Shown here: positions 89 through 59,886 of the stretch, piece by piece
Numbering within the stretch: position 1 is the first letter of the stretch
Layout of the letters: each line of letters begins with the position of its first letter
DNA from: Candidatus Nomurabacteria bacterium
GTDB lineage: Bacteria; Patescibacteriota; Minisyncoccia; Phycocordibacterales; UBA9973
Assembly: GCA_943350875.1 (NCBI GenBank)
Contig: CALRAL010000003.1
Coordinates: 25,174 to 89,173, forward strand
DNA: 64,000 bases
Reading direction: 5' to 3'
Position numbers and translations under genes: made by a program
The notes under the pieces: generated by a model
What the model saw: the letters and a program-made list of their open reading frames with translations, nothing else
Told to the model about the DNA's origin: nothing
Databases searched by the model: none

Positions 89-2101
89 TTATATCAAAAA
101 TGCTACTAAAAGCAAAGCCACAATGTTCAAGATTTTTATCATTGGATTGATAGCAGGACCGGCAGTGTCTTTGTAAGGGTCTCCAACAGTGTCGCCAGTG
201 ATAGCTGCTTTGTGCGCATCGCTTCCTTTACCACCAAAGTGTCCCTTTTCAATATGCTTCTTGGCATTATCCCAAGCGCCTCCACCTGAGGTCATTGAGA
301 TAGCTACGAAAAGTCCAGTGATGATAGAACCAACCAAAAGTCCACCGAGGGCTACTGGTCCTAGGATAAAGCCAACTAAAATAGGAGTGATAACGGGAAT
401 AAGAGCAGGCAGAATCATTTGCTTGATAGCGCTAGTAGTCACCAAGTCAACACATTTGCCGTATTCTGGCTTGCCAGTGCCTTCCATGATGCCTTTGATA
501 TCTCTAAATTGTCGGCGGACTTCTTCTACGACTTTTCCAGCTGTTTTACCTACGGCTTCCATACAAAGTGCACCAAAATAATATGGCAAAAGTCCACCAA
601 TGAAAAGTCCAGCGATTACTTTTGGATCTTCAAGAGTAAAATTCAAATGGACTCCTGCGTTTAAAAATTCTTGAGTATAAGAAGAGAACAACACCAAAGC
701 TGCAAGTCCGGCTGAACCGATGGCATATCCTTTGGTGACAGCTTTAGTGGTGTTGCCGACAGCATCGAGAGCGTCTGTTACTTCACGAACTTTTTCATCC
801 ATTCCAGACATTTCTGCTATCCCTCCAGCATTGTCCGTGATTGGTCCATAAGAATCAATAGCTACGATAATTCCTGTCATTGAGAGCATGCTCATGGCTG
901 CGATAGCAATACCGTAAAGTCCAGCAAAATTATATGAAAGTAAAATACCAGCGACGATGACGAGTAAAGGCCAAGCAGTGGATTTCATTGAAATAGCCAA
1001 ACCTTGAATAATATTTGTGCCGTGTCCTGAGACAGAAGATTCAGCAATGGATTTCACCGGAGCGTATTTTGAAGATGTGAAATATTCTGTGATCACTACG
1101 AGCAGAGCAGTGATGACAAGCCCGACTATAGAAGCGAAGAAAAGATTGTTTACACTATAAATACCATTTTCACTCATCAAAATTTTAGTAATTGGATAAA
1201 AGAGGATAGCAGAGATGACACCGGCACTGACTAGACCTTTGTAAAGAGCATTCATGATGTTTGGAGTTTCACCTTCTTTTTTGGATTTGCCTAATCGGAC
1301 GAACCAAGTTCCAATGATCGAAGCGAGAGTGGCTGCTCCGCCTAAAACTAACGGATAAACGAGAGCATTTTCCATTTTAGTAAATAAAAGAGAGCCGAGG
1401 AGCATCGCTGCGATAGAAGTGACAGCATAAGTCTCAAAAAGGTCTGCTGCCATACCTGCACAATCCCCAACATTGTCTCCGACATTGTCTGCTATTACTG
1501 CCGGGTTTCTTGGATCATCTTCTGGAATACCAGCTTCTAATTTACCGACGAGATCTGCGCCCACATCTGCAGCCTTGGTAAAGATTCCTCCACCAAGTCT
1601 AGCAAACACTGAGATCAAAGATCCTCCAAAACCGAAACCAATTAGAGCTTTTATATCATTTGTTAAAGCGAAAAATCCTGCTACTCCCAAAAGGGCTAGT
1701 CCAACGACGAGGAGTCCGGTGACTGATCCACCCTTAAAAGCAACGGACAATGCACTTGCTAATCCGTCCTTGGCAGCTTCTGCAGTACGGACATTAGCAC
1801 GGACAGAAACATTCATTCCGATATATCCTGCTAAAGCAGAGAGTATTGCGCCTAGTATAAATCCGAGTGCAGAAGTGATACCTAAACCAAGCCATAATAT
1901 GATAAATAGAACAACAGCTATAGCACCGATAGTTTTGTATTGTCTATTTAGATATGCTTTCGCGCCTTCCGCTATGGCCGAAGCGATAGATTGCATTTTT
2001 TCATTCCCAGCGCTTTTTTTTAAGATAGATTTTGCTAAAAATATTCCATAAACGATAACTACCACTGAACTTATAATTGCAAACAATAAAAATTGATTCA
2101 T
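89..2101 (-). CDS. hppA: Membrane-bound proton- or sodium-translocating pyrophosphatase (V-type H+-PPase)
   Basis: The 670-aa ORF is a multi-pass membrane protein. It carries the characteristic H+-PPase motifs [26 protein letters not shown] and [17 protein letters not shown]. Confidence 0.9.
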
Positions 2102-2124: not shown

Positions 2125-3375
2125 TTATTCTTTTTCCCCGCCTGCATCGCTATGCGAAACATTGCGGGCAGGTTCAATTATTTCAACTTTTTCTCCGTCA
2201 GTGGAAGCAAGCACTTTGCCTGCCTGCGCAGGCAGGCCATTACCTTTGATGTCTATTCTCCATCCAGTAAGTTTAGCGGCTAGACGTACATTTTGGCCAC
2301 CTTTACCGATGGCGAGTGATAATTGATCATCAGAGACTTCTACTACTGCTTTGTGTTCTTTTTCATCTACTTTAATAGAGATAACTTTGGCTGGGGAGAG
2401 GGAATTAGAAACGAATTGTTTTGGATCGGCAGTCCAAGGGATAATGTCTATTTTTTCTCCACCCAATTCTTGAGTAATAGTATTTACTCTGGTACCTTTT
2501 TGTCCAACACAAGAACCAACTGGGTCGATATGTTCATCGTTAGAGAAGACTGCTATTTTTGAGCGAGCACCTGCTTCACGAGCGATTGATTTTATCTCTA
2601 CCACGCCATTTTCTATCTCTGGTGCTTCGATGGCAAAGAGTTTCTCGATGAATTTAGGATGGGTCCTAGAAAGCCTCAAATTTATTCCTCTTGGTGAGTC
2701 TTCTACAGAATACAAATATGCGCGGATTCTCTGACCTCGGGCAAAATATTCCCCAGGGATTTGTTCCTCAGCAGGGAGGATGCCAGTTGCGCGGTTGAAA
2801 TCAATATAAACATTCCCTCTTTCCACTTTTTGCACTATGCCAGAAATAACTTCTCCTTCTTTGGTGCCATATTCGTCTATGATGGATGTACGTTCTGCTT
2901 CACGGATCTTTTGGATTATGACCTGCTTTGCAGTTTGAGCTGCGATACGTCCATAATCCTCTTTTGGATCCAGTGGAAAGATTATCTCATCATTCAGTTC
3001 CACCCCCTTTTTTATCTTTCTGGCATCTTCGAGCATGATGTGATGTTCTGCATTGAAACGGACTCTTTCATCATCACTCTTAAAGGAATATTCCCCGCCT
3101 GCATCGCTATGCGAAGCATTGCGGGCAGGAGCTTCTTCTCCTTCCTCTTCTATTTTAGCAATAGTTTCATCTACTACTATTTTCACTTGGTAGAAATCAG
3201 CTTTGCCATTCTCCAAATCAAATTTAGCCCTTATTATTTGGCCTTTTTTACCGTAATCTTTCTTGTAAGCGGCGGCCATGGCTTGCTCGATAGCGTCCAA
3301 TATTTTCTCTTTTGGAATTTTCCTTTCTTCCTCTAGTTGCTCTAATGCTGATTTGAATGTTTTTAGATCTAACAT
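2125..3375 (-). CDS. nusA: Transcription termination/antitermination factor NusA. It carries two in-frame palindromic-element insertions.
   Basis: The 416-aa ORF has a NusA N-terminal domain, S1 and tandem KH domains (GGEKIDIIPW, IGKGGQNVRLAAKLTGWRIDI). The peptide PARNxSHSDAGGE occurs twice, each encoded by a copy of a 37-bp palindromic repeat. Confidence 0.9.
   Translation of the reverse strand: MLDLKTFKSALEQLEEERKIPKEKILDAIEQAMAAAYKKDYGKKGQIIRAKFDLENGKADFYQVKIVVDETIAKIEEEGEEAPARNASHSDAGGEYSFKSDDERVRFNAEHHIMLEDARKIKKGVELNDEIIFPLDPKEDYGRIAAQTAKQVIIQKIREAERTSIIDEYGTKEGEVISGIVQKVERGNVYIDFNRATGILPAEEQIPGEYFARGQRIRAYLYSVEDSPRGINLRLSRTHPKFIEKLFAIEAPEIENGVVEIKSIAREAGARSKIAVFSNDEHIDPVGSCVGQKGTRVNTITQELGGEKIDIIPWTADPKQFVSNSLSPAKVISIKVDEKEHKAVVEVSDDQLSLAIGKGGQNVRLAAKLTGWRIDIKGNGLPAQAGKVLASTDGEKVEIIEPARNVSHSDAGGEKE
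2136..2172. repeat. Family-1 palindromic element (CCCCGCCTGCATCGCTATGCGAAACATTGCGGGCAGG), in-frame in the 3' end of nusA
   Basis: It is near-identical to the copy at 3093-3129 and related to 44821-44860. The sequence is an imperfect hairpin and is GC-rich in an AT-rich context. Confidence 0.8.
3093..3129. repeat. Family-1 palindromic element, second copy, in-frame inside nusA
   Basis: It differs from 2136-2172 at one position and encodes APARNASHSDAGGE in the nusA frame. Confidence 0.8.
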
Positions 3376-3402
3376 AATATTGTTTCGTTTAATGATTGTT
3401 AA

Positions 3403-3446
3403 TTTTTACCTGCCCGCCAAAGCTTTAGCGTCGGCGGGTAAAAATA
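3403..3446. repeat. Family-1-related hairpin (TTTTTACCTGCCCGCC...GGCGGGTAAAAA) in the nusA upstream intergenic region
   Basis: It shares the CCTGCCCGC...AGCG...GGCGGG core with the in-gene family-1 copies. It forms a stem-loop but has no following U-run, so it is not a canonical terminator. Confidence 0.5.
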
Positions 3447-3558
3447 AAAGCCCCAGTTGTGACAGGACTTATACTTGTCTATATTATCACAGTTTACTTT
3501 TTCTTGCAACATACGATTTTATCCACAGATTTTGTTTGTTTCTTAATTTCTTTTTTAG

Positions 3559-3921
3559 TTGTATAATATACATGATATGTCTAGAAAAAATATAATAATA
3601 TTATTTTCTGTCTTAATATTGATATTTACCTTTTTCTTCTTTTATGTGATGGACAAGTCTATTTTCTCTGGTTTTAAATTCGGTGGTCCTAGTGAAGAAT
3701 TAAAAGACTTTTCTCAAGATCCTAAATATACCACCAAGCAAGCACAAACAATTAGAGAACTTGAGAATTTTAAACCCATCCCTAGTCAATCTGTTTCAGG
3801 GGTTGAAATCAAACCAAGAACTCCAGAAGAAATAGTGAAAGAACTTAATTCTTTTAAACCTACAAAAAAAACTTCTCTCAGCGCTAGTCAATTAAAAGCC
3901 CTAAATGATTTTCACCCATAA
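3559..3921 (+). CDS. Small membrane-anchored hypothetical protein
   Basis: 120-aa ORF with an N-terminal TM helix (IIILFSVLILIFTFFFFYV) and low-complexity KP-rich repeats. Confidence 0.3.
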   Translation: MYNIHDMSRKNIIILFSVLILIFTFFFFYVMDKSIFSGFKFGGPSEELKDFSQDPKYTTKQAQTIRELENFKPIPSQSVSGVEIKPRTPEEIVKELNSFKPTKKTSLSASQLKALNDFHP

Positions 3922-15987: not shown

Positions 15988-17691
15988 ATGCAAAAGTATG
16001 GGGAATTATTAAGAATGCTATTAGAGAAGAGAGGTATAAAGGACGAGGCGCAAGCTGAAGTTTTTCTTAACCCATCTTATAAAAGGGATCTTCACGATCC
16101 GTTTTTAATGAGAGATATGAATGTGGCTTGTGAGAGGATTCTGGAAGCCATAAAAAATAATGAAAGAATAGTTATTTATGCGGATTATGATTGTGATGGT
16201 ATTCCCGGGGCGGTGATTTTACATGATTTGTTTACTAAATTAGATTATAAAAATTACGAGGTTTATATTCCCCAGAGGAATTCGGAAGGTTATGGGTTAA
16301 ATAGTGAGGCAATAGAAATATTTTCAAAAAGTAATGCGAAATTAATAATTACCATAGACTTGGGTATTACAGCTATAGATGAAGTAGCACAAGCAAATGG
16401 CCTTGGCATAGATGTGATTATTACAGATCATCATTTACCTCACAAGAATTTACCAAAAGCTTTGGCCATTTTAAATCCCAAAGTGGATAGTTATCCAGAG
16501 AAGATGTTGTGTGGAGCAGGAGTTGTTTTTAAATTAGTACAGGGTTTAATTCAAAAGATAGTTCCTCAAGGACTTGTCTTGGACCCTCTAAAGGCAAGAC
16601 CTTTCCCCACTATCCTTGATGGTTGGGAGAAATGGATGCTTGATATGGCAGGGCTTGCCACACTTTCAGATATGGTCCCACTTACAGGAGAGAATAGGGC
16701 TATATCTTATTTCGGAATGAAAGTTTTAAGGAAGTCCCCACGTCCAGGATTGATTAAGCTTCTTGCAAAAATGAAAGTGGATCAGAAGTATATGTCAGAA
16801 GATGATGTGAGTTTTATGATTACTCCTAAAATAAATGTCGCTTCTCGCATGGGTGACCCAGTAAAAGCGTATGAACTTCTTTCTGCAAAGGATGAGGCAC
16901 AGGCCGGGGCTATTGTGGATTATTTATTAAAAATAAATGATGAAAGAAAAACTATGGTGACAGGCATAATGCGAGAAGTAAATAAAAAATTAAGCGTAAG
17001 AGAAACAAAAGAAGTAATAGTGATAGGTAATGGTGAATGGAGGGTTGGAGTTTTGGGACTTGTAGCAGGGAAAATCTGTGATGAATATCAAAAGCCAGTT
17101 TTTGTATGGGGCAGAGATGAAAATGACGCTATAAAAGGTTCTTGTCGTTCGGATGGGTCCGTGTCGGTGGTTGAGCTTATGACTGAAGCTACTGAACACT
17201 TTTCTGATTTTGGTGGTCATGAACTAGCAGGAGGTTTTACTGTCCGAAACGATAAAATTCATTTTTTGGAAGATGCTTTATCTGTTGTATTTTTAAAAAT
17301 TTGCGGGAAAAGGCAAGACCTTAAGGAGATTCAAGGTCTTGCATTGAAGAGCGATCTAACTATAAATCTGGGGCAGGTGAATATGAAAAATTGGAATGAG
17401 ATAGAGAAGATGGCGCCTTTTGGCCTAGCAAATCATAAACCAATTTTTCTTTTTGAAAATGTAAAAATAGAAAAAATAAAAAAATTTGGCAAAAATGGTT
17501 CAGGCGAGCATTTGGAAATAATATTTTCTGATTCTTTAGGTAAAGTAAAGGCAATTTCTTTTTTCTCTACCGTTGATTCCTTTAAAAGGACAATCTCAGG
17601 CGGAGAGAGGGTTAAATTACTAGCAAGTTTTGATTTGTCTTATTTTGGTGGTAAAAAAGAGCTTCGATTACGAATTATTGATATAATATAA
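15988..17691 (+). CDS. recJ: Single-stranded-DNA-specific exonuclease RecJ (DHH/DHHA1). It carries two in-frame family-3 element insertions.
   Basis: DYDCDGI, the DHH motif (ITDHH) and a DHHA1 C-terminal region. Insertions lie at 16564-16608 and 17303-17352. Confidence 0.85.
   Translation: MQKYGELLRMLLEKRGIKDEAQAEVFLNPSYKRDLHDPFLMRDMNVACERILEAIKNNERIVIYADYDCDGIPGAVILHDLFTKLDYKNYEVYIPQRNSEGYGLNSEAIEIFSKSNAKLIITIDLGITAIDEVAQANGLGIDVIITDHHLPHKNLPKALAILNPKVDSYPEKMLCGAGVVFKLVQGLIQKIVPQGLVLDPLKARPFPTILDGWEKWMLDMAGLATLSDMVPLTGENRAISYFGMKVLRKSPRPGLIKLLAKMKVDQKYMSEDDVSFMITPKINVASRMGDPVKAYELLSAKDEAQAGAIVDYLLKINDERKTMVTGIMREVNKKLSVRETKEVIVIGNGEWRVGVLGLVAGKICDEYQKPVFVWGRDENDAIKGSCRSDGSVSVVELMTEATEHFSDFGGHELAGGFTVRNDKIHFLEDALSVVFLKICGKRQDLKEIQGLALKSDLTINLGQVNMKNWNEIEKMAPFGLANHKPIFLFENVKIEKIKKFGKNGSGEHLEIIFSDSLGKVKAISFFSTVDSFKRTISGGERVKLLASFDLSYFGGKKELRLRIIDII
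16564..16608. repeat. Family-3 palindromic element, orientation A (CCTCAAGGACTTGTCTTGGACCCTCTAAAGGCAAGACCTTTCCCC), in-frame in recJ
   Basis: Near-identical to 18575-18619 in comEC. It encodes PQGLVLDPLKARPFP. Confidence 0.8.
17303..17352. repeat. Family-3 palindromic element, orientation B (GCGGGAAAAGGCAAGACCTTAAGGAGATTCAAGGTCTTGC...), in-frame in recJ
   Basis: Perfect 10-bp inverted repeat GCAAGACCTT/AAGGTCTTGC. It is homologous to 25269-25320 in argS and is the reverse complement of orientation A. Confidence 0.8.
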
Positions 17692-18229: not shown

Positions 18230-19750
18230 ATGAAAGACAAAGCTTTTTACGCTTGTTGTTTTGGTGTCATATTTGGGATATTTTTACGTTCTTTTATTGC
18301 AATAGACATTTATGCACTTATATTTTTTGCTTTAATTTCTATCTCTTTGCTCTTGTTTTTTAGCTTTATCTCAAAAAGAAAATTAGGAATAATATTTTCG
18401 ATTTTTCTATTTGCTTTTTGTTTAGGTGTTTTCAGGTTTCATATATATGACAAAATAAATCCTGATATTTTTGAAACAAAAGTGGGTAAAGAATTTTCTT
18501 TTTCTGGGTTAATAATAGATGAACCAAGCGTTGCAGAAAATAATCAGAAATTAATTATTGAAACAGGATTGGCTCCTCAAGGACTCGCCTTGGACTCCCT
18601 TAAGGCAAGACCTTTTCCCGCCAAAAGTCGCATTTTGGTATCTACGAATTTTGATGAGAGTTTTAAATATGGTGACGAGATAAGTTTTAAGGGAATTTTA
18701 GAAAAACCGGAGAATTTTATTACAGATCAGGGCAAAGAATTTGATTATGTAAATTATCTCAAAAAAGACGGAATATTTTACGTGATGAAATACCCAAAAA
18801 TAGATATTTTGTCCCATAGTAACGGAAGTTTTATAAAAAGTATCTTATTTTCTGCAAAAGAAAAGTTTCTGGATAAAATAAATTTTGTAATTCCAGAACC
18901 AGAGAGCTTACTCATGGGCGGACTTATTTTAGGCGAAAAATCTTCGTTTGGTCAAGAATTAAGGCAAAGTTTTGTAAATACTGGGACTATCCACATAGTG
19001 GCTTTATCTGGGTACAATGTGACAATAGTAGCCGAATGGTTTATGAAATTATTTTCTTTTTTACCTATAAATTTTAGTATTTTTGCTGGTATTTTAGCCA
19101 TCTTACTTTTTATCTTGATGACTGGAGGATCTTCCACTGCTATCAGAGCAGGGGTAATGGCAACTTTGGCTTTGATAGCCCGCGCCACTGGTAGGAATTA
19201 TGATGTGGCGCGGGCGCTTATTCTCTCTGGTGTAGTGATGCTCCTATTTAATCCACTTTTGCTAGTGTATGATGTGTCATTTCAACTATCTTTTTTGGCG
19301 ACCATTGCGGTAATATTTTTGACGCCAAAAATTGAGAAATACTTTTTTTGGGTGACGGAAAGATTTGGTCTGCGGGATGTCGTATCTATCACATTTTCTG
19401 CTTACATTTTTGTGATGCCTTTTATTTTGTATAAGATGGGGAACCTTTCGTTGGTGGCTTTACCTACAAATGTTTTGGTTCTCCCATTTATTCCGTTTAC
19501 CATGTTACTAGGATTTGTGACTGGATTTATAGGACTTATTTCAAGTATCCTAGCTATCCCTCTTGGGTATATTTCTTACTTTTTCTTACATTATGAATTA
19601 TTTATAATTAATTTATTCTCAAACATTCCATTTTCTTCCATATCTATATCAAATTTCCCATTGTTTATTACAATTTTAATTTACATAGTTTTTATTTACA
19701 AAATTTTCGGCACAGATGTTAAAAAACTTTTTACTGTTTTGCCTGAATAA
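18230..19750 (+). CDS. comEC: ComEC/Rec2 competence channel protein (DUF4131 plus competence domain) lacking the C-terminal metallo-beta-lactamase domain. It carries an in-frame family-3 insertion.
   Basis: Polytopic membrane protein with the ComEC competence motif (GTIHIVALSGYNV). The MBL domain is encoded separately at 20342..21211. Confidence 0.75.
   Translation: MKDKAFYACCFGVIFGIFLRSFIAIDIYALIFFALISISLLLFFSFISKRKLGIIFSIFLFAFCLGVFRFHIYDKINPDIFETKVGKEFSFSGLIIDEPSVAENNQKLIIETGLAPQGLALDSLKARPFPAKSRILVSTNFDESFKYGDEISFKGILEKPENFITDQGKEFDYVNYLKKDGIFYVMKYPKIDILSHSNGSFIKSILFSAKEKFLDKINFVIPEPESLLMGGLILGEKSSFGQELRQSFVNTGTIHIVALSGYNVTIVAEWFMKLFSFLPINFSIFAGILAILLFILMTGGSSTAIRAGVMATLALIARATGRNYDVARALILSGVVMLLFNPLLLVYDVSFQLSFLATIAVIFLTPKIEKYFFWVTERFGLRDVVSITFSAYIFVMPFILYKMGNLSLVALPTNVLVLPFIPFTMLLGFVTGFIGLISSILAIPLGYISYFFLHYELFIINLFSNIPFSSISISNFPLFITILIYIVFIYKIFGTDVKKLFTVLPE
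18575..18619. repeat. Family-3 palindromic element, orientation A, in-frame in comEC
   Basis: CCTCAAGGACTCGCCTTGGACTCCCTTAAGGCAAGACCTTTTCCC encodes PQGLALDSLKARPFP. Confidence 0.8.
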
Positions 19751-23780: not shown

Positions 23781-25583
23781 ATGATAAAAGAAAAAATAGA
23801 AAAATTAATAAAAGATGCGTTGAAAAGTCTCGGTCTCGAAGATCTTAATTTTGTGGTAGAACATCCAGAGGATTTGAAGAATGGAGATTATTCTACAAAT
23901 GTAGCAATGGTTTGTGCTAAAAATCTAAAAACAAATCCTAGAGAATTGGCAGAAAATATAGTTGCCGAGTTAAAAAACTCTCCCCTTGCCAAGGGGGAGG
24001 TTGGAGGGGGTCTAATACATGAAATTCAAATAGCCGGTGCTGGGTTTATCAATTTTTATCTTTCTCGTGAATTTTTTTCAAACTCCATAAAAGAAATCCT
24101 AGAACAAAAAGAAAATTGGGGTAAAAATAGTTTCCTTGCGGGGAAAAAGGTAATGGTGGAATATACAGACCCAAATCCTTTTAAACCTTTTCATATCGGG
24201 CATTTGATGAGTAATGCTATAGGTGAATCAATATCAAGAATTTTTGAATTCTCTGGAGCACATACTGTTCGTGCAAATTATCAGGGTGATGTAGGGCTTC
24301 ATGTGGCCAAAGCAATATATGGGATTTTGAATGACCCTCTCGCCTTCGACACTCCCCCTTGGCAGGAGGAGATTGGAACGATGCCTGCTTCTGTGCAGGC
24401 AGACTATATTGGGCGATTCTATGCAAAAGGCAGTGATGCTTATGAAAGTGATGAAAAAGCAAAAAATGAAATTGATGAAATAAATAAAAAAGTTTATGAA
24501 AAAAGTGACGATGAAATAAATAAAATATATAATTGGGGTAGAAGAGTCACATTAGAGGCTTTTGAAGAAATATATAAAGTTCTTGGAACAAAATTCAAAT
24601 ATTACTTTTTTGAAAGCGAGATGGCGCCTATTGGCAATAAAATAGTCCGTGCAAATATGAGTAAAATTTTTGAAGAATCAGATAACGCAATAATTTTTCA
24701 TGCCGAAACATACGATCCAAAACTCCACACTCGTGTATTTGTAACTTCAAAGAATTTACCTACATATGAAGCAAAAGAAATTGGCTTAACATTCACAAAG
24801 TTTGAAAAAGAAAATCCAGATATTTCTGTAGTAGTGACAGCACACGAGCAAGCTGAATATATGAAAGTTGTAGCGAAAGCCATCTCACTAATACACCCTG
24901 AATACGAAAACAGGATGAAACACATCACTCATGGTATGATGCGCCTAGCCTCGGGCAAGATGTCTTCTCGAAAGGGAAATGTGGTCACCGGTGAATCCCT
25001 TTTGCATGATTCGATAGATACGATAAAAGAAAAAATATCCGCCCGAGGCGGACCAGCCTTGGGCTGGAAAGAAGTAGAAGTTCAAGAAGTTTCAGAATCT
25101 GTGGGAGTATCGGCGCTTAAATATTCAATTCTTCGTTCCTCAATGGGTTCTGATATAGTTTATGATTTTGAGAAGTCCATTTCGTTTGAAGGTGATTCTG
25201 GGCCATATCTGCAATATTCTGCAATTCGTGCGAAATCAGTTTTAGCAAAAGCTGGCGATACCAACTTTGGCGGGAAAAGGTCAGACCTTAAGAATTTAGA
25301 AAGGTCTGTCCTTGAGGAGCCAAAAGAAGTTTCAAATTTAGAAAAAACCCTATATCGTTTCCCCGAAGTTGTAGTTTTGTCATATCAAAAGTTTGAACCA
25401 CATCATATTGCAACATATCTGACAGAACTTGCCTCATCATTTAACACTTTTTACACAGAAACAAAAATAATAAACGAAGCAGATAAATATTCACCATATT
25501 ATCTTGCATTGACCAAAGCATTTCTACAAACAATACAAAACGGCCTTTGGCTCCTTGGCATCACTCTGCCAGAGAAGATGTAA
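23781..25583 (+). CDS. argS: Arginine--tRNA ligase. It carries two in-frame GC-rich element insertions.
   Basis: 600 aa with HIGH (PFHIGHLMS), the DALR anticodon-binding domain and a C-terminal Met. Insertions lie at 23981-24017 and 25269-25320. Confidence 0.9.
   Translation: MIKEKIEKLIKDALKSLGLEDLNFVVEHPEDLKNGDYSTNVAMVCAKNLKTNPRELAENIVAELKNSPLAKGEVGGGLIHEIQIAGAGFINFYLSREFFSNSIKEILEQKENWGKNSFLAGKKVMVEYTDPNPFKPFHIGHLMSNAIGESISRIFEFSGAHTVRANYQGDVGLHVAKAIYGILNDPLAFDTPPWQEEIGTMPASVQADYIGRFYAKGSDAYESDEKAKNEIDEINKKVYEKSDDEINKIYNWGRRVTLEAFEEIYKVLGTKFKYYFFESEMAPIGNKIVRANMSKIFEESDNAIIFHAETYDPKLHTRVFVTSKNLPTYEAKEIGLTFTKFEKENPDISVVVTAHEQAEYMKVVAKAISLIHPEYENRMKHITHGMMRLASGKMSSRKGNVVTGESLLHDSIDTIKEKISARGGPALGWKEVEVQEVSESVGVSALKYSILRSSMGSDIVYDFEKSISFEGDSGPYLQYSAIRAKSVLAKAGDTNFGGKRSDLKNLERSVLEEPKEVSNLEKTLYRFPEVVVLSYQKFEPHHIATYLTELASSFNTFYTETKIINEADKYSPYYLALTKAFLQTIQNGLWLLGITLPEKM
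23981..24017. repeat. Family-2-type GC-rich hairpin (CTCCCCTTGCCAAGGGGGAGGTTGGAGGGGGTC), in-frame in argS
   Basis: CTCCCC/GGGGAG stem. It is related to the CCCCTTGTCAGGGGG and GGAGGGGGTTGGGGGTGG modules at 60524, 63845 and 52830. Confidence 0.6.
25269..25320. repeat. Family-3 palindromic element, orientation B, in-frame in argS
   Basis: GGCGGGAAAAGGTCAGACCTTAAGAATTTAGAAAGGTCTGTCCTTGAGGAGC encodes GGKRSDLKNLERSVLEE. Compare recJ GKRQDLKEIQGLALKS. Confidence 0.8.
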
Positions 25584-36951: not shown

Positions 36952-37118
36952 ACTTGAACGAAGCTCATGAACTCTGGCAAGAGCTTTAACTTTAACTTCA
37001 CCACTCAGCTAGGCCTTACCTATCAATTAACAAGGCCCAAAATCAATCTACTTTACTCAACTAAAGTGTAGAATGGTTTTTGGGGTTCTGTGAATTATCA
37101 TTACTGTGATAGACTTAG
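36952..37118 (+). repeat. Direct repeat copy A of an approximately 170-bp repeat (AACGAAGCTCATGAACTCTGGCAAGAGCTTTAACTTT ... ATCAATCTACTTTACTCAACTAAAGTGTAGAATGG...)
   Basis: Approximately 85-90% identical to copy B at 37352-37520. It contains a degenerate CTAGGC..CCTA hairpin. Confidence 0.7.
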
Positions 37119-37351: not shown

Positions 37352-37520
37352 GGATTAGATGTAAACGAAGCTCATGAACTCTGGCAAGAGTTTTAACTTT
37401 CATTCTATGAATTGCTAGGCAAGACCTAGCAATTACAATTAACAAGGCCCAGAATCAATCTACTTTACTAAACTAAAGTGTAGAATGTTTTTTTGATTCT
37501 GTAAATCGTCATAGTAATTT
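37352..37520 (+). repeat. Direct repeat copy B of the approximately 170-bp repeat, containing the GCTAGGCAAGACCTAGC hairpin
   Basis: See copy A. Its internal hairpin is identical to the rpsR terminator core at 57466-57482. Confidence 0.7.
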
Positions 37521-39710: not shown

Positions 39711-42700
39711 AGAAAATGTAAAAAATAATAAATCAGAAGTAGCTCTCAGGGAGGAGAGGGTTTTGGAATTTTGGGAGCAAAATAAAATATTTGAAAAAGT
39801 TTCAAAAAAGGTAGCGAAGAAGGGTGACTATGTATTTTATGACGGTCCGCCGACGGCCAACGGCATGCCGGGGCTACACCATGTGGAGCCACAATCTTTC
39901 AAGGATTTAATTCCTCGATACAAAACTATGCGAGGGTATAATGTCTTGCGTAAAGCGGGCTGGGATACACACGGGCTTCCAGTAGAGCTTCAAGTAGAAA
40001 AAGCGCTTGGGCTAAAATCTAAAAAAGATATTGAAAAATACGGAGTAGAACTTTTTAATCAGAAATGCAAAGAAAGTGTTTGGCAATATAAAGCAGAATG
40101 GATGAAAATGCGTACTCGCATGGGTTTCTGGACTGATCTGGAGAATGCATACGTAACTTATACGAATAATTATATTGAAGCCTTGTGGGGAGTAGTGCAA
40201 AAGGCAGATGAGAGAGGATTCTTGTATAAAGATTTCAAGATCTTGCCTTGGTGCCCTCGCTGTGGGACAGCTCTCTCTAGCCATGAGCTCAATCAGCCTG
40301 GGGCATACAAAGATGTAAAAGATCTGTCTGTTTATGTGAAATTTAAAATTATTGGTGGCAATGATGCTTTTGCGGGGTCGCTGTCTCCGTCTGTTGACGG
40401 AGCGCTGCCTCTCGGCTCGTCAGCCTGCGAGACACCCCGACAAAAGCACATTGCCACCAATTTTTACATTCTTGCTTGGACAACAACACCTTGGACTTTG
40501 CCGGGGAATGTGGCTTTGGCAGTGGGGAATGATATTGATTACGTAAAAGTGAAATTTGGTGGGGAGATTTTGATTTTAGCAGAGGCTAGACTTTCTGTTT
40601 TGGGTGGCGAATATGAAATTTTGGAAAAATTGAAAGGCAAAGATTTAATTGGTTTAGAATATGAACCACTTTTTCCATATTTGTCCGCCCAAGGCGGATC
40701 CGCCTCTGGCGGAAAAGATTTTAGTGAAAGTATAAAAAATGCTTTTAAAATTTATCCAGCAGACTTTGTGACGACCACAGACGGCACAGGAGTGGTGCAT
40801 ACAGCTGTGATGTATGGAGTGGATGATTTTGAGCTTGGAACTAAATTAAATTTACCGAAATATCATCTCGTAAATGAAGAAGGTAAATTTATAAAAGGTA
40901 CAGGATTCTTGGAGGGGCGATATGTTAAGGAAGCTGACGAGAATGGCAAGCCGACACTCGCTGTGGACATCATTGATGACTTAACCAAGCGTGGACTTTT
41001 GTTTAAAAAAGAAAATCACTTGCACAGCTATCCACATTGTTGGCGTTGTGATACACCACTTATTTATTACGCTCGGATGTCTTGGTATTTTAAGATGAGT
41101 GCGCTACGTAGCCAATTAATGGCTGGAAATGAAAAGATACATTGGGAGCCAGAACATATCAAACACGGACGTTTTGGTGAGTGGCTTGATGGTATAAAAG
41201 ACTGGGCCATTTCTCGGGACAGATATTGGGGTACACCGATACCAGTCTGGCAGAAAAAAGATGGCACATATAAAACTATCGGCTCACTTTCAGAACTAAA
41301 AAAATATACTAAAAAGTCAGGTAATAAGTATTTTGTCATGCGACATGGGGAAGCAGAAAATAATATGGGAGAATTATATAAAGTTGATCCGACTCAAAGT
41401 TTTAATCTTACTGAAAAAGGGTGTCAACAGGTTTTAGAAAATATTAAAAATTTTAAAGAAAAAGTAGATGTTATTATTTCTTCCCCATTTGAACGAACAA
41501 GAGAAACTACAAAAATAGTTTGTGAATTTTTAGGTTTTCCGTTAGATAAAGTTATTTATGATGATAGAGTGCAAGAGTGGGAAGTAAGCTCTATGTTTAA
41601 TGGTAAGACACGTAAAGAGATGAAACAATATTATGATAATGATTATATGTATGCTCCACACGAAAGTCTTGCTGATGCAGAAAGTTTTATCCATGTTGTA
41701 AAAAGAACTGGGGATTTCCTTTATGACATAGAATCTAAATATAAAGATAAAACTATTTTACTTGTTAGCCATGCTGGGGCAGGCAGGGCTATGACGTTTG
41801 TCTCGAATGGAGCTACTTTTACTGATTTACCAAATAGACCAGATATAACCAAGATGCTAGATAATGCAGAAATCAAAAAACTTGATTTCGTGCCACTTCC
41901 TCACAATCAAAATTATGAACTTGATTTTCATAAACCATATATTGATGAAATAATTTTAGAAGAAAACGGAGAACAAATGTCTCGCACACCGGAGGTGATG
42001 GATGTGTGGTTTGATTCAGGGGCTATGCCTTATGCACAGAGTCATGTGTTAGGTACTCCGATGGACTTCTCTCCAGCCAAGGCAGACTACATATCTGAAG
42101 CGATAGATCAGACTCGTGGATGGTTCTATACTTTGCATGCAGTTATAAATTTGGTAAATAATAAATCAAGTAATGCTTTTAAAAATGTTATTTGTCTCGG
42201 GCATATTTTGGATGCGAATGGGCAGAAAATGTCTAAATCAAAAGGCAATGTAGTGGACCCATGGATGATGTTTGATAAATACGGGGCGGACACCCTCCGC
42301 TTATGGATGTATTCTGTGAATCAGCCAGGGGAGTCAAAGAACTTTGACGAGAAAAATGTTTTGGAATTAAATAGACAAGTTTTTGGCTTGCTTTATAATA
42401 TTGTGGCTTTTTATGAGCTTTATCGGGATAAAGATTTAGAAATTATACAAGGACAGTCCTTAAGAGAGTTTCCCCAAGGACTGTCCTTTAAAAATATTTT
42501 AGATATTTGGATTCTTGCTAGATTAAACGAGTTGATAGAACTCACTACTAAAAATCTAGATAGTTTTAAACTTTTAGAGCCGACTCGAGCTATGAAAGAT
42601 TTTATAAATGATCTCTCTACATGGTATCTGCGTCGTTCTAGAGATAGATTAAAAGATGAAGATAAAAATGCAAAACTTACACTGTATTTTGTATTAAAAA

Positions 42701-44427: not shown

Positions 44428-45051
44428 ATGCATCATATACACCACACAGAGGGGATAATATTAGGGAGTAGGAATTTTGGAGAGACGGGGAAATATTATT
44501 CCATTTTCACTCGTGATTTGGGCTTGGTATATGCTAGCGCGCAGGGAGTACGCAAGATGTCCTCCAAACTCCGTTTTGTCCTTTCAGATTATTCTCATAT
44601 AAAAGTGGATTTAGTAAAAGGCAAAGACCTCTGGCGAGTGACGAGCGCTTCAAAGACAGGGAGTCTTGAAGACATCTCAAAAGATAAAGAGAATTTTGTA
44701 GTTTTTGTCAGTATTTTAAATCTATTGAAAAGATTATTAGCTGGGCAAGAAGCAAATGAAACTTTATTTACAGATTTGGTAAAAGGTTTTAATTTTTTAG
44801 AAAAAGTTGGGCAAAAAGAACCTGCCCGCAATGCTTTCAGTATAGCTGATGCAGGCGGGGATAATTTAAGGAATATAGAAATAATAATAGTTTTACGAAT
44901 GTTGAATAATCTGGGATACATAGGAGCCGGAGAAACATCAGAGAATATAATAAAATCTCCATTTGAAGAGAATTTGGTGTTTGAAGTATCAAAGAATAGG
45001 TCTAAAGTTTTAGAGCAGATAAACAAGGCCTTAAAAGAGACTCATTTGTAA
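44428..45051 (+). CDS. recO: DNA repair protein RecO, compact, with an in-frame family-1 insertion
   Basis: RecO N-terminal OB-fold pattern EGIILGSRNFGETGKYYSIFTRDLGLVYASAQGVRK. The insertion at 44821-44860 encodes EPARNAFSIADAGGD. Confidence 0.65.
   Translation: MHHIHHTEGIILGSRNFGETGKYYSIFTRDLGLVYASAQGVRKMSSKLRFVLSDYSHIKVDLVKGKDLWRVTSASKTGSLEDISKDKENFVVFVSILNLLKRLLAGQEANETLFTDLVKGFNFLEKVGQKEPARNAFSIADAGGDNLRNIEIIIVLRMLNNLGYIGAGETSENIIKSPFEENLVFEVSKNRSKVLEQINKALKETHL
44821..44860. repeat. Family-1 palindromic element, in the reverse-complement orientation relative to the nusA copies, in-frame in recO
   Basis: CCTGCCCGCAATGCTTTCAGTATAGCTGATGCAGGCGGGG. Confidence 0.75.
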
Positions 45052-52091: not shown

Positions 52092-53607
52092 TTTTTATAT
52101 TACCACTACTTTGCCTTATGTAAATGCTCCATTGCATTTAGGACACGCTACGGAGATAATACGTGCAGATACTATAGCTCGATTTAAAAAAATACAAGGT
52201 TTCGATGTGTTTTTTAATACTGGAACAGATGAACATGGGCAAAAAATTTATGAATCTGCAGAAAAGGCTGGTAAGGGAGTAAAAGAATATGTTGATTATT
52301 ATGCGGATTTATACAAGAGAACTTTAGAGAGGTTTGGTGTATTGTCAGATGTGCATTATATCCGGACGACAGATGAAAATCATACAAAAGCCGCAAAAGA
52401 ATTTTGGGCAAGATGTAAAGACAAGGGTTTTATATACAAAAAGAATTACCAGGCAAAGTATTGTGTTGGTTGCGAGGAAGAGAAAACTGAAAGTGAACTG
52501 GTTGATGGCAAATGCCCTGAACATGATAGGGTTCCGGATTTAATAAACGAAGAGAACTACTTTTTTAAATTTAGTGCTTTTACAGATAAATTAGAGAATT
52601 TCTATAAAGAAAATTCAGATTTTATCGTTCCTAATTATAGGATGAATGAGATGCGTGAGTTCATAAAACATGGACTCAATGATTTTAGTATTTCTCGCTT
52701 AAAATCAAAGATGTCTTGGGGTATAGATGTGCCGGGAGATGAAGATCATGTCATGTATGTCTGGTTTGATGCATTAACAAATTATATTTCTACATTAGGA
52801 TGGCCGGATAAAACTCCCCTCCTTATGGAGGAGGGGGTTGGGGGTGGTAATTCAAAAAATCACCACCTCGCCCTAAAGGGCTCTCCTCCTCAACAAGGAG
52901 GAGAGGAATCTCTATTTTCAAAGTACTGGATAAATGGTAATCCAACACAATATTGTGGTAAAAATAATACTCGTTTTCAAGGTCTTATGTGGCAGGCAAT
53001 GCTCTTGGCAGTAGATTTGCCATTAACACATCAGATTATCGTTGATGGTTTTATTTTAGGAGAAGGAGGTATAAAAATGTCTAAGACTCTTGGCAACACA
53101 ATAGATCCACTAGATTTAATACAAGAATATGGGACCGATGGACTCCGATATTTCGTATTACGAGATTTTCATTCTTTTGAGGATACCGCGGTTTCAAAAG
53201 ATAGGCTTAAAGAATCATATAATGCAAATCTGGCGAATGGGCTAGGGAATCTGACTAGTCGCATTTTGACTTTATCTGAGAAATATTTAGATAATGGAAT
53301 AAAAGAAACGAAATTTTCTATACCACAAGTAAATGATTTCTTAAATACTTTTGACATACAGCTTGCAATGAAAGTTATTTTTGATTTGATAAACGATTTG
53401 GATAAACAAATACAGAAAACAGAACCGTTCAAAGTTATAAAAGTGAATGAAGAAGAAGGAAAGAAATTAATTAAAAGTCATGTAAAGCAACTCCTTACCA
53501 TCGCGAAATCTTTAGCTCCATTTTTGCCTGAGACCTCAGAAAAAATAGTAGAACTTATTAAACAAAATAAAAAACCAGAAAAGCCCCTATTTTTAAGGAA
53601 AGAATAA
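52039..53607 (+). CDS. metG: Methionine--tRNA ligase with an in-frame family-2 GC-rich element insertion
   Basis: LHLGHA (HIGH) and KMSKT motifs. The insertion at 52813-52915 encodes DKTPLLMEEGVGGGNSKNHHLALKGSPPQQGGEESLF. Confidence 0.9.
   Translation: MMLKSIKVLLEQKMKKNSFYITTTLPYVNAPLHLGHATEIIRADTIARFKKIQGFDVFFNTGTDEHGQKIYESAEKAGKGVKEYVDYYADLYKRTLERFGVLSDVHYIRTTDENHTKAAKEFWARCKDKGFIYKKNYQAKYCVGCEEEKTESELVDGKCPEHDRVPDLINEENYFFKFSAFTDKLENFYKENSDFIVPNYRMNEMREFIKHGLNDFSISRLKSKMSWGIDVPGDEDHVMYVWFDALTNYISTLGWPDKTPLLMEEGVGGGNSKNHHLALKGSPPQQGGEESLFSKYWINGNPTQYCGKNNTRFQGLMWQAMLLAVDLPLTHQIIVDGFILGEGGIKMSKTLGNTIDPLDLIQEYGTDGLRYFVLRDFHSFEDTAVSKDRLKESYNANLANGLGNLTSRILTLSEKYLDNGIKETKFSIPQVNDFLNTFDIQLAMKVIFDLINDLDKQIQKTEPFKVIKVNEEEGKKLIKSHVKQLLTIAKSLAPFLPETSEKIVELIKQNKKPEKPLFLRKE
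52813..52915. repeat. Family-2 composite GC-rich hairpin element (CCCCTCC..GGAGGGG, GGTGGTAATT..AATCACCACC, GCCCTAAAGGGC, CTCCTCC..GGAGGAG), in-frame in metG
   Basis: Collinear with the intergenic copy at 60509-60655 and with the ftsK copy at 62891-62975. All three are read in frame. Confidence 0.8.
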
Positions 53608-53611
53608 ATTA

Positions 53612-53636
53612 CACAGGGTTCCCCTGTGTAATTTAT
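53612..53636. repeat. REP-like 24-bp palindrome TTACACAGGGTTCCCCTGTGTAAT, copy 1
   Basis: Identical palindromes occur at 54228-54252 and 54941-54965, flanking the RAYT gene. Confidence 0.8.
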
Positions 53637-54227: not shown

Positions 54228-54252
54228 TATACACAGGGTTCCCCTGTGTAAT
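54228..54252. repeat. REP-like palindrome, copy 2, at the 5' flank of the RAYT gene
   Basis: ACACAGGGTTCCCCTGTGTAAT. Confidence 0.8.
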
Positions 54253-54267
54253 GTGTGGTATATTACA

Positions 54268-57538: not shown

Positions 57539-57604
57539 TTATACTTACCTTATGCTTAAAAGGTGTATCTTTTTGAGCTTTAAAATTAACTTATTTCAGC
57601 CATA

Positions 57605-57628
57605 GGCTGATCCGCCTTGGGCGGAAAA
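57605..57628. repeat. Family-4 palindromic element (GGCTGATCCGCCTTGGGCGGAAAA) immediately upstream of the 57632 start codon
   Basis: Matches 62428-62451 in ftsK and 40685-40717 in ileS. Confidence 0.7.
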
Positions 57629-59810: not shown

Positions 59811-59886
59811 AAATCCCTAAGGTTAGCCTAGGGATTTTGCGTTAGGTCTTGCCTAACGCACAAATACACAGGCGTTGCCTGTGTAT
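59811..59886 (+). terminator. Three consecutive GC-rich hairpins (CCCTAAGG..CCTAGGG; GCGTTAGGTCTTGCCTAACGC; GCACAAATACACAGGCGTTGCCTGTGTATTTGTGC) between the convergent PKD-protein gene and efp
   Basis: Stems seen directly. The third resembles the REP palindrome TACACAGG..CCTGTGTA. They are probably bidirectional terminators and REP-like elements. Confidence 0.55.

What the first reader, a model, noticed from the sequence alone, without database searches (positions are those of the whole stretch)
2125..3446. A 37-bp GC-rich palindromic element is inserted twice in-frame in nusA, with a third related copy just upstream
The sequence CCCCGCCTGCATCGCTATGCGAA[A/G]CATTGCGGGCAGG occurs at 2136-2172 and 3093-3129. 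Both copies are read in the nusA frame and add the peptide PARNxSHSDAGGE, once internally and once as a new C-terminal tail. A diverged copy forms the hairpin at 3403-3446 in the nusA 5' region. A fourth copy in the opposite orientation sits in-frame in recO at 44821-44860 and encodes PARNAFSIADAGGD. An imperfect palindrome of the right length can be read as a small peptide loop in either orientation. That would explain how the element is tolerated in essential genes, and the same has been reported for Rickettsia palindromic elements. I am not aware of a comparable report for CPR/Patescibacteria.
Basis: partly seen in the sequence, partly recalled or inferred. Interest (0 to 1): 0.85.

Follow-up and report, generated by a model that had tools for sequence, protein, structure and literature searches.

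The report
Hairpin repeats inserted in-frame in genes
A 36-base GC-rich hairpin-forming repeat sits precisely and in frame in nusA (twice) and recO of a small AT-rich Nomurabacteria-type bacterium, where it encodes short floppy protein loops; this is a new example, in a new bacterial group, of the "selfish palindromes inside genes" already known from Rickettsia and other bacteria.

Summary
The repeated unit is 36 nt (CCTGCCCGCAATG[C/T]TTCGCATAGCGATGCAGGCGGG on the coding strand), with a 39-nt variant in recO. All three copies lie in the same orientation and reading frame relative to their gene (PARN..AGG). An empty-site relative shows the internal nusA insertion is exact and has no target-site duplication. 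Most close NusA and RecO orthologues lack it. AlphaFold places every inserted segment in a low-confidence loop or tail. In other low-GC genomes, copies inside long ORFs are multiples of 3 in 21 of 22 cases, against 10 of 21 elsewhere, so they are most likely translated. The same NusA and RecO loops are hotspots for at least five unrelated GC-palindrome families. The window holds more such inserts in ArgRS, IleRS, MetRS, FtsK, RecJ and ComEC.

The 36-mer family also occurs in other Patescibacteria, in PVC-type MAGs and in high-GC virus-like contigs. The window encodes a RAYT-like Y1 transposase, but it is flanked by a different hairpin. None of 80 related transposase loci carries this element, so the mobiliser is unknown.

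Verdict: a REP/RPE-like intragenic palindromic element. It is a new member of a known kind, with no CPR report found in the literature I could search. Interest is moderate.

The parts
3094..3129 (-). Element copy 1: 36 nt, CCTGCCCGCAATGCTTCGCATAGCGATGCAGGCGGG on the coding strand. It lies inside the NusA N-terminal domain and encodes residues 83-94 (PARNASHSDAGG).
   Evidence: Pattern match. Covariance model 61.9 bits, E = 4e-11. Exactly absent from the empty site of L123, GAGGAA|GAATAT. pLDDT is below 50 over residues 77-99.
2137..2172 (-). Element copy 2: 36 nt, 1 nt different from copy 1 (C to T, Ala to Val). It lies in the C-terminal tail of NusA, residues 402-413, followed by EKE-stop.
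   Evidence: 58.5 bits. Absent from the tails of L121 and L123. pLDDT is below 50 over residues 401-416.
44821..44859 (+). Element copy 3: 39-nt variant, CCTGCCCGCAATGCTTTCAGTATAGCTGATGCAGGCGGG. It lies in RecO, residues 132-144 (PARNAFSIADAGG), in the same orientation and frame relative to the gene as copies 1 and 2.
   Evidence: Covariance model 38.9 bits, E = 3e-6. 81 of 120 RecO orthologues have the short 7-8-residue loop and no insert. pLDDT is below 50 over residues 131-142, between helices 111-129 and 143-161.
2219..2236 (.). 18-nt perfect palindrome, CCTGCCTGCGCAGGCAGG. It resembles the family's two arms without the interior. It lies in the NusA tail and encodes LPAQAG (residues 381-386).
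   Evidence: An 18-nt gap in both relatives. The same LPAQAG/LSAQAG peptide occurs at the NusA and RecO hotspots of other genomes. The covariance model is only marginal (15.3 bits, E = 0.39). pLDDT is below 50 over residues 381-386.
3403..3446 (+). GC-core hairpin with A/T-rich feet, TTTTTACCTGCCCGCC..GGCGGGTAAAAA, in the nusA 5' region. It is an inserted palindrome; membership in the same family is doubtful.
   Evidence: Fold energy -18.3 kcal/mol, z = -3.4. Absent in L121; L123 has a different GC palindrome at about the same position. The covariance model matches the arms only, 16 bits, E = 0.27.
2125..3375 (-). nusA host gene (416 aa).
   Evidence: Pfam NusA_N, S1, KH_5 and KH_NusA_C. Residues 7-162 map to 117 positions of the NusA_N profile, so the domain carries extra residues.
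44428..45051 (+). recO host gene (207 aa).
   Evidence: Pfam RecO_N. Orthologues are mostly 192-193 aa.

Best explanation
The 36/39-nt sequence is a copy of a short, GC-rich, hairpin-forming dispersed repeat, a REP/RPE-like selfish element. It has been inserted repeatedly and precisely into this AT-rich (about 36% GC) Nomurabacteria/Paceibacterota genome.

Shown:
- The internal nusA insertion is exact (CCTGCC...GGCGGG) and has no target-site duplication.
- It is lineage-specific and has been gained or lost many times at the same loops.
- Copies inside genes keep a length that is a multiple of three.
- The inserted segments map to predicted disordered loops and tails.

Inferred:
- The copies are transcribed and translated as short, flexible, hydrophilic peptides (PARN..AGG). 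They are tolerated because selection retains only copies that land in permissive Glu/Lys-rich surface loops, in a benign frame and with a length of 3n. That filtering, rather than targeting, creates the apparent hotspots.
- Speculative, about 0.3: spread occurs as single-stranded hairpin DNA, by a trans-acting HUH/Y1 (IS200/RAYT-type) or similar enzyme. This would fit the hairpin, the lack of duplication and the strand asymmetry. The cognate enzyme was not found.
For: - The repeat is far beyond chance: 2 exact matches against 0 expected, and three covariance-model hits at E <= 3e-6.
- Filled versus empty site: window and L121 are filled (36 and 39 nt) and L123 is empty, with identical codon counts on both flanks, so there is no duplication.
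- NusA: 17 of 120 orthologues (81% identity or more) carry a PAR..AGG insert at this position, which needs at least 13 gain/loss events on a neighbour-joining tree. P0002 (filled) is nested within a clade of empty alleles.
- RecO: 81 of 120 orthologues have the short 7-8-residue loop and no insert. The closest (P0122, 78% identity) is empty, and 9 carry PAR..AGG.
- Structure: pLDDT below 50 falls on NusA 77-99, 381-386 and 401-416 and on RecO 131-142, the same stretches as the inserts.
- Translation constraint: in low-GC genomes 21 of 22 copies in ORFs of 150 aa or more are 3n long, against 10 of 21 elsewhere (Fisher p = 6e-4). 18 of 22 are in sense orientation and 13 of 22 in the PAR..AGG frame.
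- The hosts are real genes: UvrC-, RecG-, UvrD-, ATP synthase gamma-, L25-, FolC- and RNase J-like ORFs, identified by reading the translations.
- A GA(N) codon following the insert is common for in-ORF copies but not for intergenic copies, which points to selection rather than target choice.
- The sequence is nearly invariant across very different genomes: the identical 36-mer occurs in L091 and L214, and the host GC ranges from 0.30 to 0.64. This argues for recognition by a sequence-specific machinery.
- The hairpin is stable on the coding strand (-19 kcal/mol, z = -3.2) and uses G.U/G.T pairs that become A.C mismatches on the other strand.
- A RAYT-like Y1 transposase with REPtron architecture is present in the window. 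The family is very abundant in CPR: 7737 homologues.
- Precedent: intragenic REPs and RPEs in repair genes and tRNA synthetases (PMC3733652).
Against: - No mobiliser was identified. The window's RAYT-like gene is flanked by a different hairpin (TACACAGGG-TTC-CCCTGTGTA).
- 80 related RAYT loci from metagenomes are flanked by their own stem-AGG-N3-5-CCT-stem hairpins, and none has a CCTGCC element within 1.5 kb.
- No gene family recurs next to the copies. No transposase lies between an inverted pair in L205.
- The element lacks the GTAG/CGTC tag of classical REPs.
- There is no statistical covariation: 83 of 500 shuffles reach the observed score. Hairpin conservation therefore cannot be separated from plain sequence conservation.
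- Translation of the insert is inferred, not observed.
- Presence/absence patterns cannot by themselves distinguish insertion from precise deletion.
- An empty-site DNA comparison was obtained only for nusA.
Confidence: 0.72

Rival explanations
1. The hairpin is a functional cis-acting signal, for example an mRNA stability, RNase or translation-pausing hairpin, or a DNA site bound by a conserved host or phage protein. It would be maintained by selection and spread by recombination or gene conversion, not as a selfish mobile element.
For: The primary sequence is extremely conserved across phyla and across GC contents. The hairpin is strand-asymmetric, with G.U pairs on the sense strand. In-ORF copies show a sense-orientation bias of 18:4. 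In high-GC contigs the copies look intergenic, and one lies directly after a terminator-like hairpin.
Against: The hosts are unrelated genes with no common function. The same loops accept at least five unrelated palindrome families. Close orthologues do well without it. Copy density is far too low for an uptake-type signal: the 9-mer arm occurs 5 times in 64 kb. There is no Rfam match.
Confidence: 0.12
2. The peptide segments are ancestral, native parts of NusA and RecO that were lost in other lineages.
For: PAR..AGG peptides recur at the same position in several orthologues.
Against: The same DNA occurs in unrelated genes, in intergenic DNA and in other frames and orientations. The filled allele P0002 is nested among empty alleles, and at least 13 state changes are needed. 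Most orthologues lack the insert.
Confidence: 0.02
3. Palindromes arise de novo at each site by template switching or fold-back replication errors in purine-rich tracts, and the similarity between copies is convergent.
For: The insertion sites are GAA/AAA-rich low-complexity tracts. A minimal arms-only 18-mer exists.
Against: Thirty-six-nucleotide near-identity between unrelated genes and between genomes of 30-64% GC cannot be convergent. The inserted sequence has no template in the flanks.
Confidence: 0.02
4. The element is not translated. It is removed from the transcript or bypassed by the ribosome, as with byp elements of yeast mitochondria.
For: None directly. GC-rich hairpins inside AT-rich coding sequence resemble mitochondrial GC clusters and byps (my own knowledge).
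Against: If the element were excised or bypassed, its length would not need to be 3n and stop-free. Yet 21 of 22 in-ORF copies are 3n and all are open in the host frame. The used frames encode small hydrophilic residues.
Confidence: 0.03
5. It is an assembly or chimerism artefact that duplicated a sequence.
For: The two nusA copies are near-identical and 957 bp apart.
Against: The copies differ by 1 nt and have unique flanks. The identical protein is on record from 2 contigs. The variant-filled allele occurs in two JGI samples. Related copies come from dozens of independent assemblies.
Confidence: 0.01

Closest known systems
Rickettsia palindromic elements (RPE-1 to RPE-10; Ogata et al. 2000 and 2002, from my own knowledge; cited in PMC3733652)
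   Same: These are dispersed palindromic repeats inserted in frame into housekeeping genes of a small AT-rich genome. They are translated as extra surface segments, are absent from orthologues, also occur in intergenic DNA, and have an unknown mobiliser.
   Different: RPE-1 is about 100-150 bp (35-50 aa) and restricted to Rickettsia. The present element is 36-39 nt (12-13 aa), strongly GC-rich, and sequence-conserved across phyla. No sequence comparison with RPE consensus sequences could be made here.
REP/REPIN elements and intragenic REPs (GTAG- and CGTC-tagged palindromes; Di Nocera et al. 2013, PMC3733652; Bertels and Rainey 2011, PMC3116915)
   Same: They are 20-40-nt imperfect palindromes with G.T pairs. 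Some are inserted in frame in DNA-repair genes and tRNA synthetases, the same gene classes as here. RAYT-type Y1 transposases are present in the genome.
   Different: The present element has no GTAG or CGTC tag, does not flank a RAYT gene, and occurs as singletons rather than inverted dimers. All three copies in this window are coding. Classical REP families are mostly species-specific, whereas this 36-mer is shared across phyla.
GC clusters of yeast mitochondrial DNA (my own knowledge)
   Same: They are short GC-rich palindromic elements scattered in a very AT-rich genome, occasionally in frame within a coding gene (var1), with an unclear mobility mechanism.
   Different: They are organellar and eukaryotic, belong to different sequence families, and some derivatives (byps) are bypassed rather than translated.
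Small dispersed repeats (SDR) of cyanobacteria (Elhai et al. 2008, my own knowledge)
   Same: They are very short (about 21-27 nt) hairpin repeats that behave as mobile insertions without coding capacity or obvious duplication, and they sometimes sit inside genes or other repeats (compare the nesting in L109).
   Different: They occur in a different phylum with different sequences, and mostly insert into other repeats rather than protein loops.
MITEs (for example Correia/NEMIS, RUP)
   Same: They are non-autonomous repeats that can be co-transcribed or fused to ORFs.
   Different: MITEs are 70-300 bp with terminal inverted repeats and target-site duplications. Here the element is 36 nt, the whole unit is a hairpin, and there is no duplication.

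Membership tests
REP / REPIN-RAYT system | Short (20-40 nt) imperfect palindrome, dispersed in many copies | tested here: met
   The hairpin is 36/39 nt, at -19 kcal/mol and z = -3.2. There are 3 copies in 64 kb and 49 covariance-model hits in 63 sources.
REP / REPIN-RAYT system | Conserved GTAG or CGTC tetranucleotide at one end of the stem-loop | tested here: not met
   The ends are CCTG.../...CGGG in all three copies, with no GTAG or CGTC at either end. Only the doubtful upstream hairpin has CGTC next to its 3' arm.
REP / REPIN-RAYT system | The family flanks its cognate RAYT gene in inverted orientation (REPtron) | tested here: not met
   The window RAYT-like gene (54271-54966) is flanked by TACACAGGG-TTC-CCCTGTGTA. 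None of 80 RAYT loci has the element within 1.5 kb. In L096 the element lies near a RAYT but is not its flanking hairpin.
REP / REPIN-RAYT system | Predominantly extragenic; often inverted dimers | tested here: not met
   All 3 window copies are coding. 22 of 43 copies in low-GC genomes lie in ORFs of 150 aa or more. All are singletons.
Rickettsia palindromic elements (RPE) | In-frame insertion in functional genes, absent from orthologues, with the peptide on the protein surface | tested here: met
   presence/absence; low-pLDDT loops and tails.
Rickettsia palindromic elements (RPE) | Sequence homology to an RPE consensus, and occurrence in Rickettsia | not tested
   No RPE consensus sequences were available in the tools. 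The organism is Nomurabacteria/Paceibacterota according to source names of the homologues. The size (36 nt) differs from RPE-1.
MITE | Terminal inverted repeats flanking a 70-300 bp body, with a target-site duplication | tested here: not met
   There is no duplication at the nusA site, and the element is 36 nt.
CRISPR repeat / mini-array | Regularly spaced direct repeats separated by unique spacers of similar length | tested here: not met
   The copies are 957 bp and 42 kb apart and lie inside genes. Multi-copy loci (L095, L205) have irregular kb-scale spacing. There is no Rfam CRISPR-DR hit.
Intrinsic terminator | GC hairpin followed by a T-run downstream of a gene | tested here: not met
   The three copies are inside ORFs and are followed by GAA/GAT, not T-runs.
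Structured RNA family (Rfam) | Match to a curated covariance model; covariation supporting a structure | tested here: not met
   No Rfam hit at gathering threshold; the best match has E = 0.3. The covariation score is reached by 83 of 500 shuffles.

The most novel reading that the evidence does not exclude
A single, almost invariant 36-nt hairpin is an active ssDNA-type mobile unit, the smallest class of transposable DNA. It crosses phylum boundaries (CPR, PVC bacteria, virus-like contigs) through an unidentified enzyme that is not the classical flanking RAYT. In the gene-dense, ultra-small genomes of Patescibacteria it and sister families are a major, ongoing source of new loops and tails in essential proteins, with about 15 candidate in-ORF inserts in this 64-kb window and recurrent hotspots in NusA and RecO.
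Probability: 0.25. Interest if true: 0.7.

Novelty: new member of a known kind. Interest (0 to 1): 0.52.

Why it matters
CPR/Patescibacteria genomes are regarded as extremely streamlined. Yet this window shows housekeeping and probably essential genes (NusA, RecO, three tRNA synthetases, FtsK, RecJ, ComEC) carrying repeated palindromic inserts. If this holds genome-wide, three things follow.
1. Selfish hairpin DNA persists even in roughly 1-Mb genomes and shapes protein surfaces.
2. Annotation and phylogenomics of CPR marker proteins must allow for hypervariable, element-derived segments.
3. The large metagenomic diversity of these lineages offers thousands of natural filled and empty sites. 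These could be used to work out how RPE/REP-like elements move, which is still unresolved for Rickettsia RPEs.

The cross-phylum conservation of the 36-mer is unexplained and is the most interesting loose end.

Tried and rejected
- **RAYT link.** I found a RAYT-like Y1 transposase in the window, collected homologues and 80 metagenomic loci, and examined their flanks. All carry their own stem-AGG-N-CCT-stem hairpins. The covariance model found no CCTGCC element near any of them.
- **Guilt by association.** Clustering 695 ORFs within 2 kb of copies gave no recurrent neighbour family. ORFs between an inverted pair in L205 have no Pfam transposase hit. tblastn with the RAYT against the viral loci found nothing.
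- **Known RNA.** Rfam gave nothing.
- **Covariation.** It is not distinguishable from shuffles, so I make no claim of structure-level selection.
- **Cultured plasmids and phages.** No match in PLSDB or INPHARED.
- **Uptake-signal idea.** Rejected, because the 9-mer arms occur only 5 times in 64 kb.
- **CRISPR-repeat idea.** Rejected on spacing.
- **Replication origin at 3.4-3.6 kb.** There is one perfect DnaA box but no cluster, and the window-wide count equals chance.
- **Empty-site DNA for recO.** The closest empty orthologue (P0122) has no DNA on file.
- **Scan design.** My genome contigs pattern was too permissive.
- **Literature.** Searches by topic and by sequence string found no CPR report. 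The library is incomplete, so this is not proof of absence.
Full report
**Observation.** Both copies lie inside one 416-aa ORF on the minus strand (2125..3375). This ORF is NusA: NusA_N, S1 and two KH domains. On the coding strand the sequence is CCTGCCCGCAATG[C/T]TTCGCATAGCGATGCAGGCGGG. It is read as PARNASHSDAGG (residues 83-94) and PARNVSHSDAGG (402-413, then EKE-stop). The recO copy (44821-44859; RecO_N domain) is a 39-nt variant read as PARNAFSIADAGG. That is true only on the + strand. nusA is on the minus strand and recO on the plus strand, so all three copies have the same orientation and the same reading frame relative to their gene. Five of the six frames of the element are open (my reading of the sequence), so this agreement is suggestive rather than trivial.

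**What the unit is.** I fetched the nusA loci of two close relatives: L121, which encodes P0002, and L123, which encodes P0025. I aligned their DNA with the window.
- At the internal site the window has 36 extra nt, L121 has a 39-nt variant (PARNAFGIVNAGG) and L123 has nothing.
- The number of flanking codons is identical in all three. The insertion is therefore exactly CCTGCC...GGCGGG, between GAA and GAA, with no target-site duplication.
- An 18-nt perfect palindrome, CCTGCCTGCGCAGGCAGG (2219-2236, LPAQAG), is a further insertion absent from both relatives. It resembles the two arms of the element without an interior.
- The C-terminal copy is absent from both relatives. L123 has an unrelated GC palindrome in its own tail.
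- The upstream hairpin (3403-3446) is absent from L121. L123 has another GC palindrome at about the same position.

A covariance model built from 13 copies finds three solid members in the window, at 61.9, 58.5 and 38.9 bits. The upstream hairpin (E = 0.27) and the 18-mer (E = 0.39) match only through their arms. The 'third related copy' is therefore doubtful as a family member.

**Lineage specificity.**
- NusA: the 120 best homologues (81-89% identity; source names include Candidatus Nomurabacteria and Paceibacterota) are hypervariable exactly at this point. About half have no insert (..EEGEEE-EYS..). Seventeen have a PAR..AGG insert. Others carry at least four unrelated GC-palindrome-derived peptides: PLPNLPLSKGEEKGGG, RPESDSDTRSE, PEGVGIPTSD..RNVG and LPAQAG.
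- On a neighbour-joining tree of the conserved columns, the PAR..AGG state needs at least 13 changes. The filled allele P0002 is nested inside a clade of empty alleles.
- RecO: 81 of 120 orthologues have the short loop, including the closest one (P0122, 78% identity). Nine have PAR..AGG inserts. Others have AKDxxxFGGK, GGPASGW or LSAQAG inserts.

The refutation condition 'ancestral sequence' is therefore not met, and neither is 'assembly artefact': the two copies differ, their contexts differ, and alleles recur in independent samples.

**Where the peptides sit.** AlphaFold2 models with 86-90-sequence alignments were of moderate quality for NusA (mean pLDDT 72.7) and good for RecO (81.4). The segments with pLDDT below 50 are NusA 77-99, 381-386 and 401-416 (plus 193-210) and RecO 131-142. 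These coincide with the three NusA inserts and with the RecO insert, which lies between helices 111-129 and 143-161.

**The family elsewhere.** About half of the matches are chance hits in high-GC genomes with non-palindromic interiors.
- The low-GC hits have palindromic interiors closely related to the window's sequence. They come from MAGs labelled Nomurabacteria, Paceibacterota, Parcubacteria, Saccharibacteria, Magasanikbacteria and 'Patescibacteria group', plus some labelled Gammaproteobacteria or Bdellovibrionales.
- Elements can be nested inside one another (L109).
- A near-perfect variant (CCTGCCCGCAGTGCTACAGCGTTGCAGGCGGG) recurs in Verrucomicrobia, Kiritimatiellia and Lentisphaerae MAGs of 55-62% GC.
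- Thirteen IMG/VR contigs of 47-69% GC carry the family. One of them (L214) has the identical 36-mer.
- Nothing matched in PLSDB plasmids or INPHARED phages or in Rfam.

Such sequence constancy across hosts is unusual for REP-type repeats and remains unexplained.

**Evidence that in-gene copies are translated and filtered by selection.**
- In low-GC genomes, 21 of 22 copies inside ORFs of 150 aa or more are 3n long, against 10 of 21 elsewhere (Fisher p = 6e-4).
- 18 of 22 are in sense orientation and 13 of 22 are in the PAR..AGG frame.
- By reading the translations, the hosts look like real genes: UvrC, RecG, UvrD, ATP synthase gamma, L25, a P-type ATPase, and, in antisense orientation, FolC and RNase J.
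- In-ORF copies are usually followed by a GAN codon, and intergenic copies are not. The apparent GAA|GA 'target' is better explained by survival in acidic surface loops than by target recognition.

**Mechanism.** The window encodes a 231-aa IS200-like Y1 (HUH) transposase at 54271-54966.
- It scores 33 bits against Pfam Y1_Tnp. Its best NCBIfam hit is REP-associated tyrosine transposase, at 37.9 bits, below the cut-off of 80.
- It is flanked by inverted copies of TACACAGGG-TTC-CCCTGTGTA, which is a REPtron architecture.
- The protein family is very abundant in these lineages, with 7737 homologues.
- Most of the 80 metagenomic homologues are flanked by their own hairpins of the form stem-AGG-N3-5-CCT-stem. 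None has a CCTGCC element within 1.5 kb.
- In L096 a RAYT-like gene has the element about 60 nt beyond its own flanking hairpin, which is probably coincidence.
- No gene family recurs beside the copies.

Several features fit single-strand 'peel-and-paste' transposition by an HUH enzyme: the precise insertion without duplication, the hairpin, the strand-asymmetric G.T pairs and the sequence constancy. This step is inference, at about 0.3, and the cognate enzyme is unidentified. Covariation does not exceed shuffles, so I cannot show selection on the structure as such.

**Comparison with what is known.** In-frame palindromic inserts are classical for Rickettsia RPEs. Di Nocera et al. 2013 (PMC3733652) described intragenic GTAG/CGTC REPs in several bacteria, many of them in DNA-repair genes and tRNA synthetases. 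The same gene classes are decorated here.

The present family fails the membership tests for REP/RAYT. It has no GTAG or CGTC tag, does not flank a RAYT gene, occurs as singletons and is mostly coding. It is not a MITE, because it has no duplication and is only 36 nt. It works like an RPE or intragenic REP. Five topic searches and one sequence-string search found no report for CPR/Patescibacteria. The library is incomplete.

**Verdict.** It is a new member of a known kind. The points of interest are:
- the taxon, which has ultra-small 'streamlined' genomes;
- the density: about 15 candidate inserts of several families in 64 kb by my count, of which only the nusA, recO and recJ cases were checked against orthologues;
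- the recurrent hotspots;
- the unexplained cross-phylum conservation of the 36-mer.

Interest is about 0.5.

Noticed in passing
window 54230-54966 (also 53610-53630 and about 59865-59885): A RAYT-like IS200-family Y1 transposase gene (54271-54966; HUH motif NHFHLLI; Tyr motif YIYSYIHLNP) is flanked by inverted copies of the 21-nt hairpin TACACAGGG-TTC-CCCTGTGTA. The 3' copy overlaps the stop codon. Two more copies lie nearby. This is a REPtron-like unit in a Nomurabacteria-type genome. Most of 80 metagenomic homologues are flanked by their own stem-AGG-N3-5-CCT-stem hairpins. I found no paper that mentions both RAYTs and CPR.
   Followed up: yes
window 25038-25067 (ArgRS), 40684-40713 (IleRS), 62418-62447 (FtsK, minus strand), 57596-57625 (intergenic): A second repeat family is a double hairpin, TCCGCC-NNNG-GCGGA plus CCAGCC-NNNG-GCTGG. 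In all three genes it is read in one orientation and frame, as SA(Q/R)GG(P/S)A(L/F/S)G(W/G). The same GGPASGW peptide occupies the RecO hotspot in other genomes. I made no orthologue comparison for these three genes.
   Followed up: partly
window 16563-16608 (RecJ) and 18574-18619 (ComEC): A 46-nt repeat encodes PQGL(V/A)LD(P/S)LKARPFP. It is absent from the RecJ of relative L123 but present in the ComEC of both genomes. Its AAAGG-CAAGA-CCTTT unit resembles the AGGTCTTGCCT hairpins that flank RAYT-like genes in other CPR contigs.
   Followed up: partly
window 52816-52907 (MetRS), 62886-62977 and 63828-63859 (FtsK), 60518-60652 (intergenic), 23983-24016 (ArgRS): Compound GC/poly-purine hairpins (CCCCTCC..GGAGGGG and CTCCTCC..GGAGGAG types, down to -49.5 kcal/mol) appear to add about 10-30 residues to MetRS, FtsK and ArgRS. 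Related copies are intergenic. MetRS shows about 29 extra residues relative to the Pfam profile. This was not verified against orthologues.
   Followed up: partly
window 41332-41835 (IleRS residues 551-718): The 1221-aa isoleucyl-tRNA synthetase contains a complete histidine-phosphatase (PF00300, His_Phos_1) domain, E = 2e-23, inserted between its catalytic-domain segments.
   Followed up: no
window about 3400-3600: GC skew changes sign and gene orientation diverges here: nusA and the H+-PPase gene run leftwards and nearly everything else runs rightwards. One perfect DnaA box lies at 3519-3527, but there is no cluster, and the window-wide count equals chance. The site could be near a replication origin; this is not established.
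   Followed up: partly
window about 3446-3480 (minus strand), upstream of nusA: A short hairpin plus T-run (GTCCTGTCRCAACWGGGGCTTTTATTTTT on the nusA strand) is conserved in the window, L121 and L123. It is terminator- or attenuator-like and sits in the nusA leader.
   Followed up: no
window 36957-37081 and 37364-37493: There are two 95-97% identical direct-repeat segments about 410 nt apart, in the gene-poor stretch between the Eco57I/MmeI-like methylase-nuclease gene and a DUF4325 gene (families D10 and D17). Their nature is unknown. Rfam found nothing at gathering threshold anywhere in the 64-kb window.
   Followed up: no
L092 (UvrD-like ORF) and L097 (UvrC-like ORF): A longer shared peptide, ERTLGR(N/S)DGDGQRKFS(A/T)ENFRGE(F/S)EN, appears in two different repair proteins of two different Nomurabacteria/Paceibacterota genomes. 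This suggests a larger (about 90 nt) RPE-like element family.
   Followed up: no
L109 3655-3745; L096 4880-5060: In L109 one CCTGCC element is nested inside another related palindrome. In L096 the element lies beside tRNA-like sequence that is followed by further GGCGGGCAGG-containing DNA.
   Followed up: no
L214, L091, L205-L209 (IMG/VR and MAG loci): The identical or near-identical 36-mer occurs in contigs of 51-64% GC classified as viral, and in a MAG labelled Gammaproteobacteria. Either the element crosses phyla or some bins and labels are wrong. This is unexplained.
   Followed up: partly
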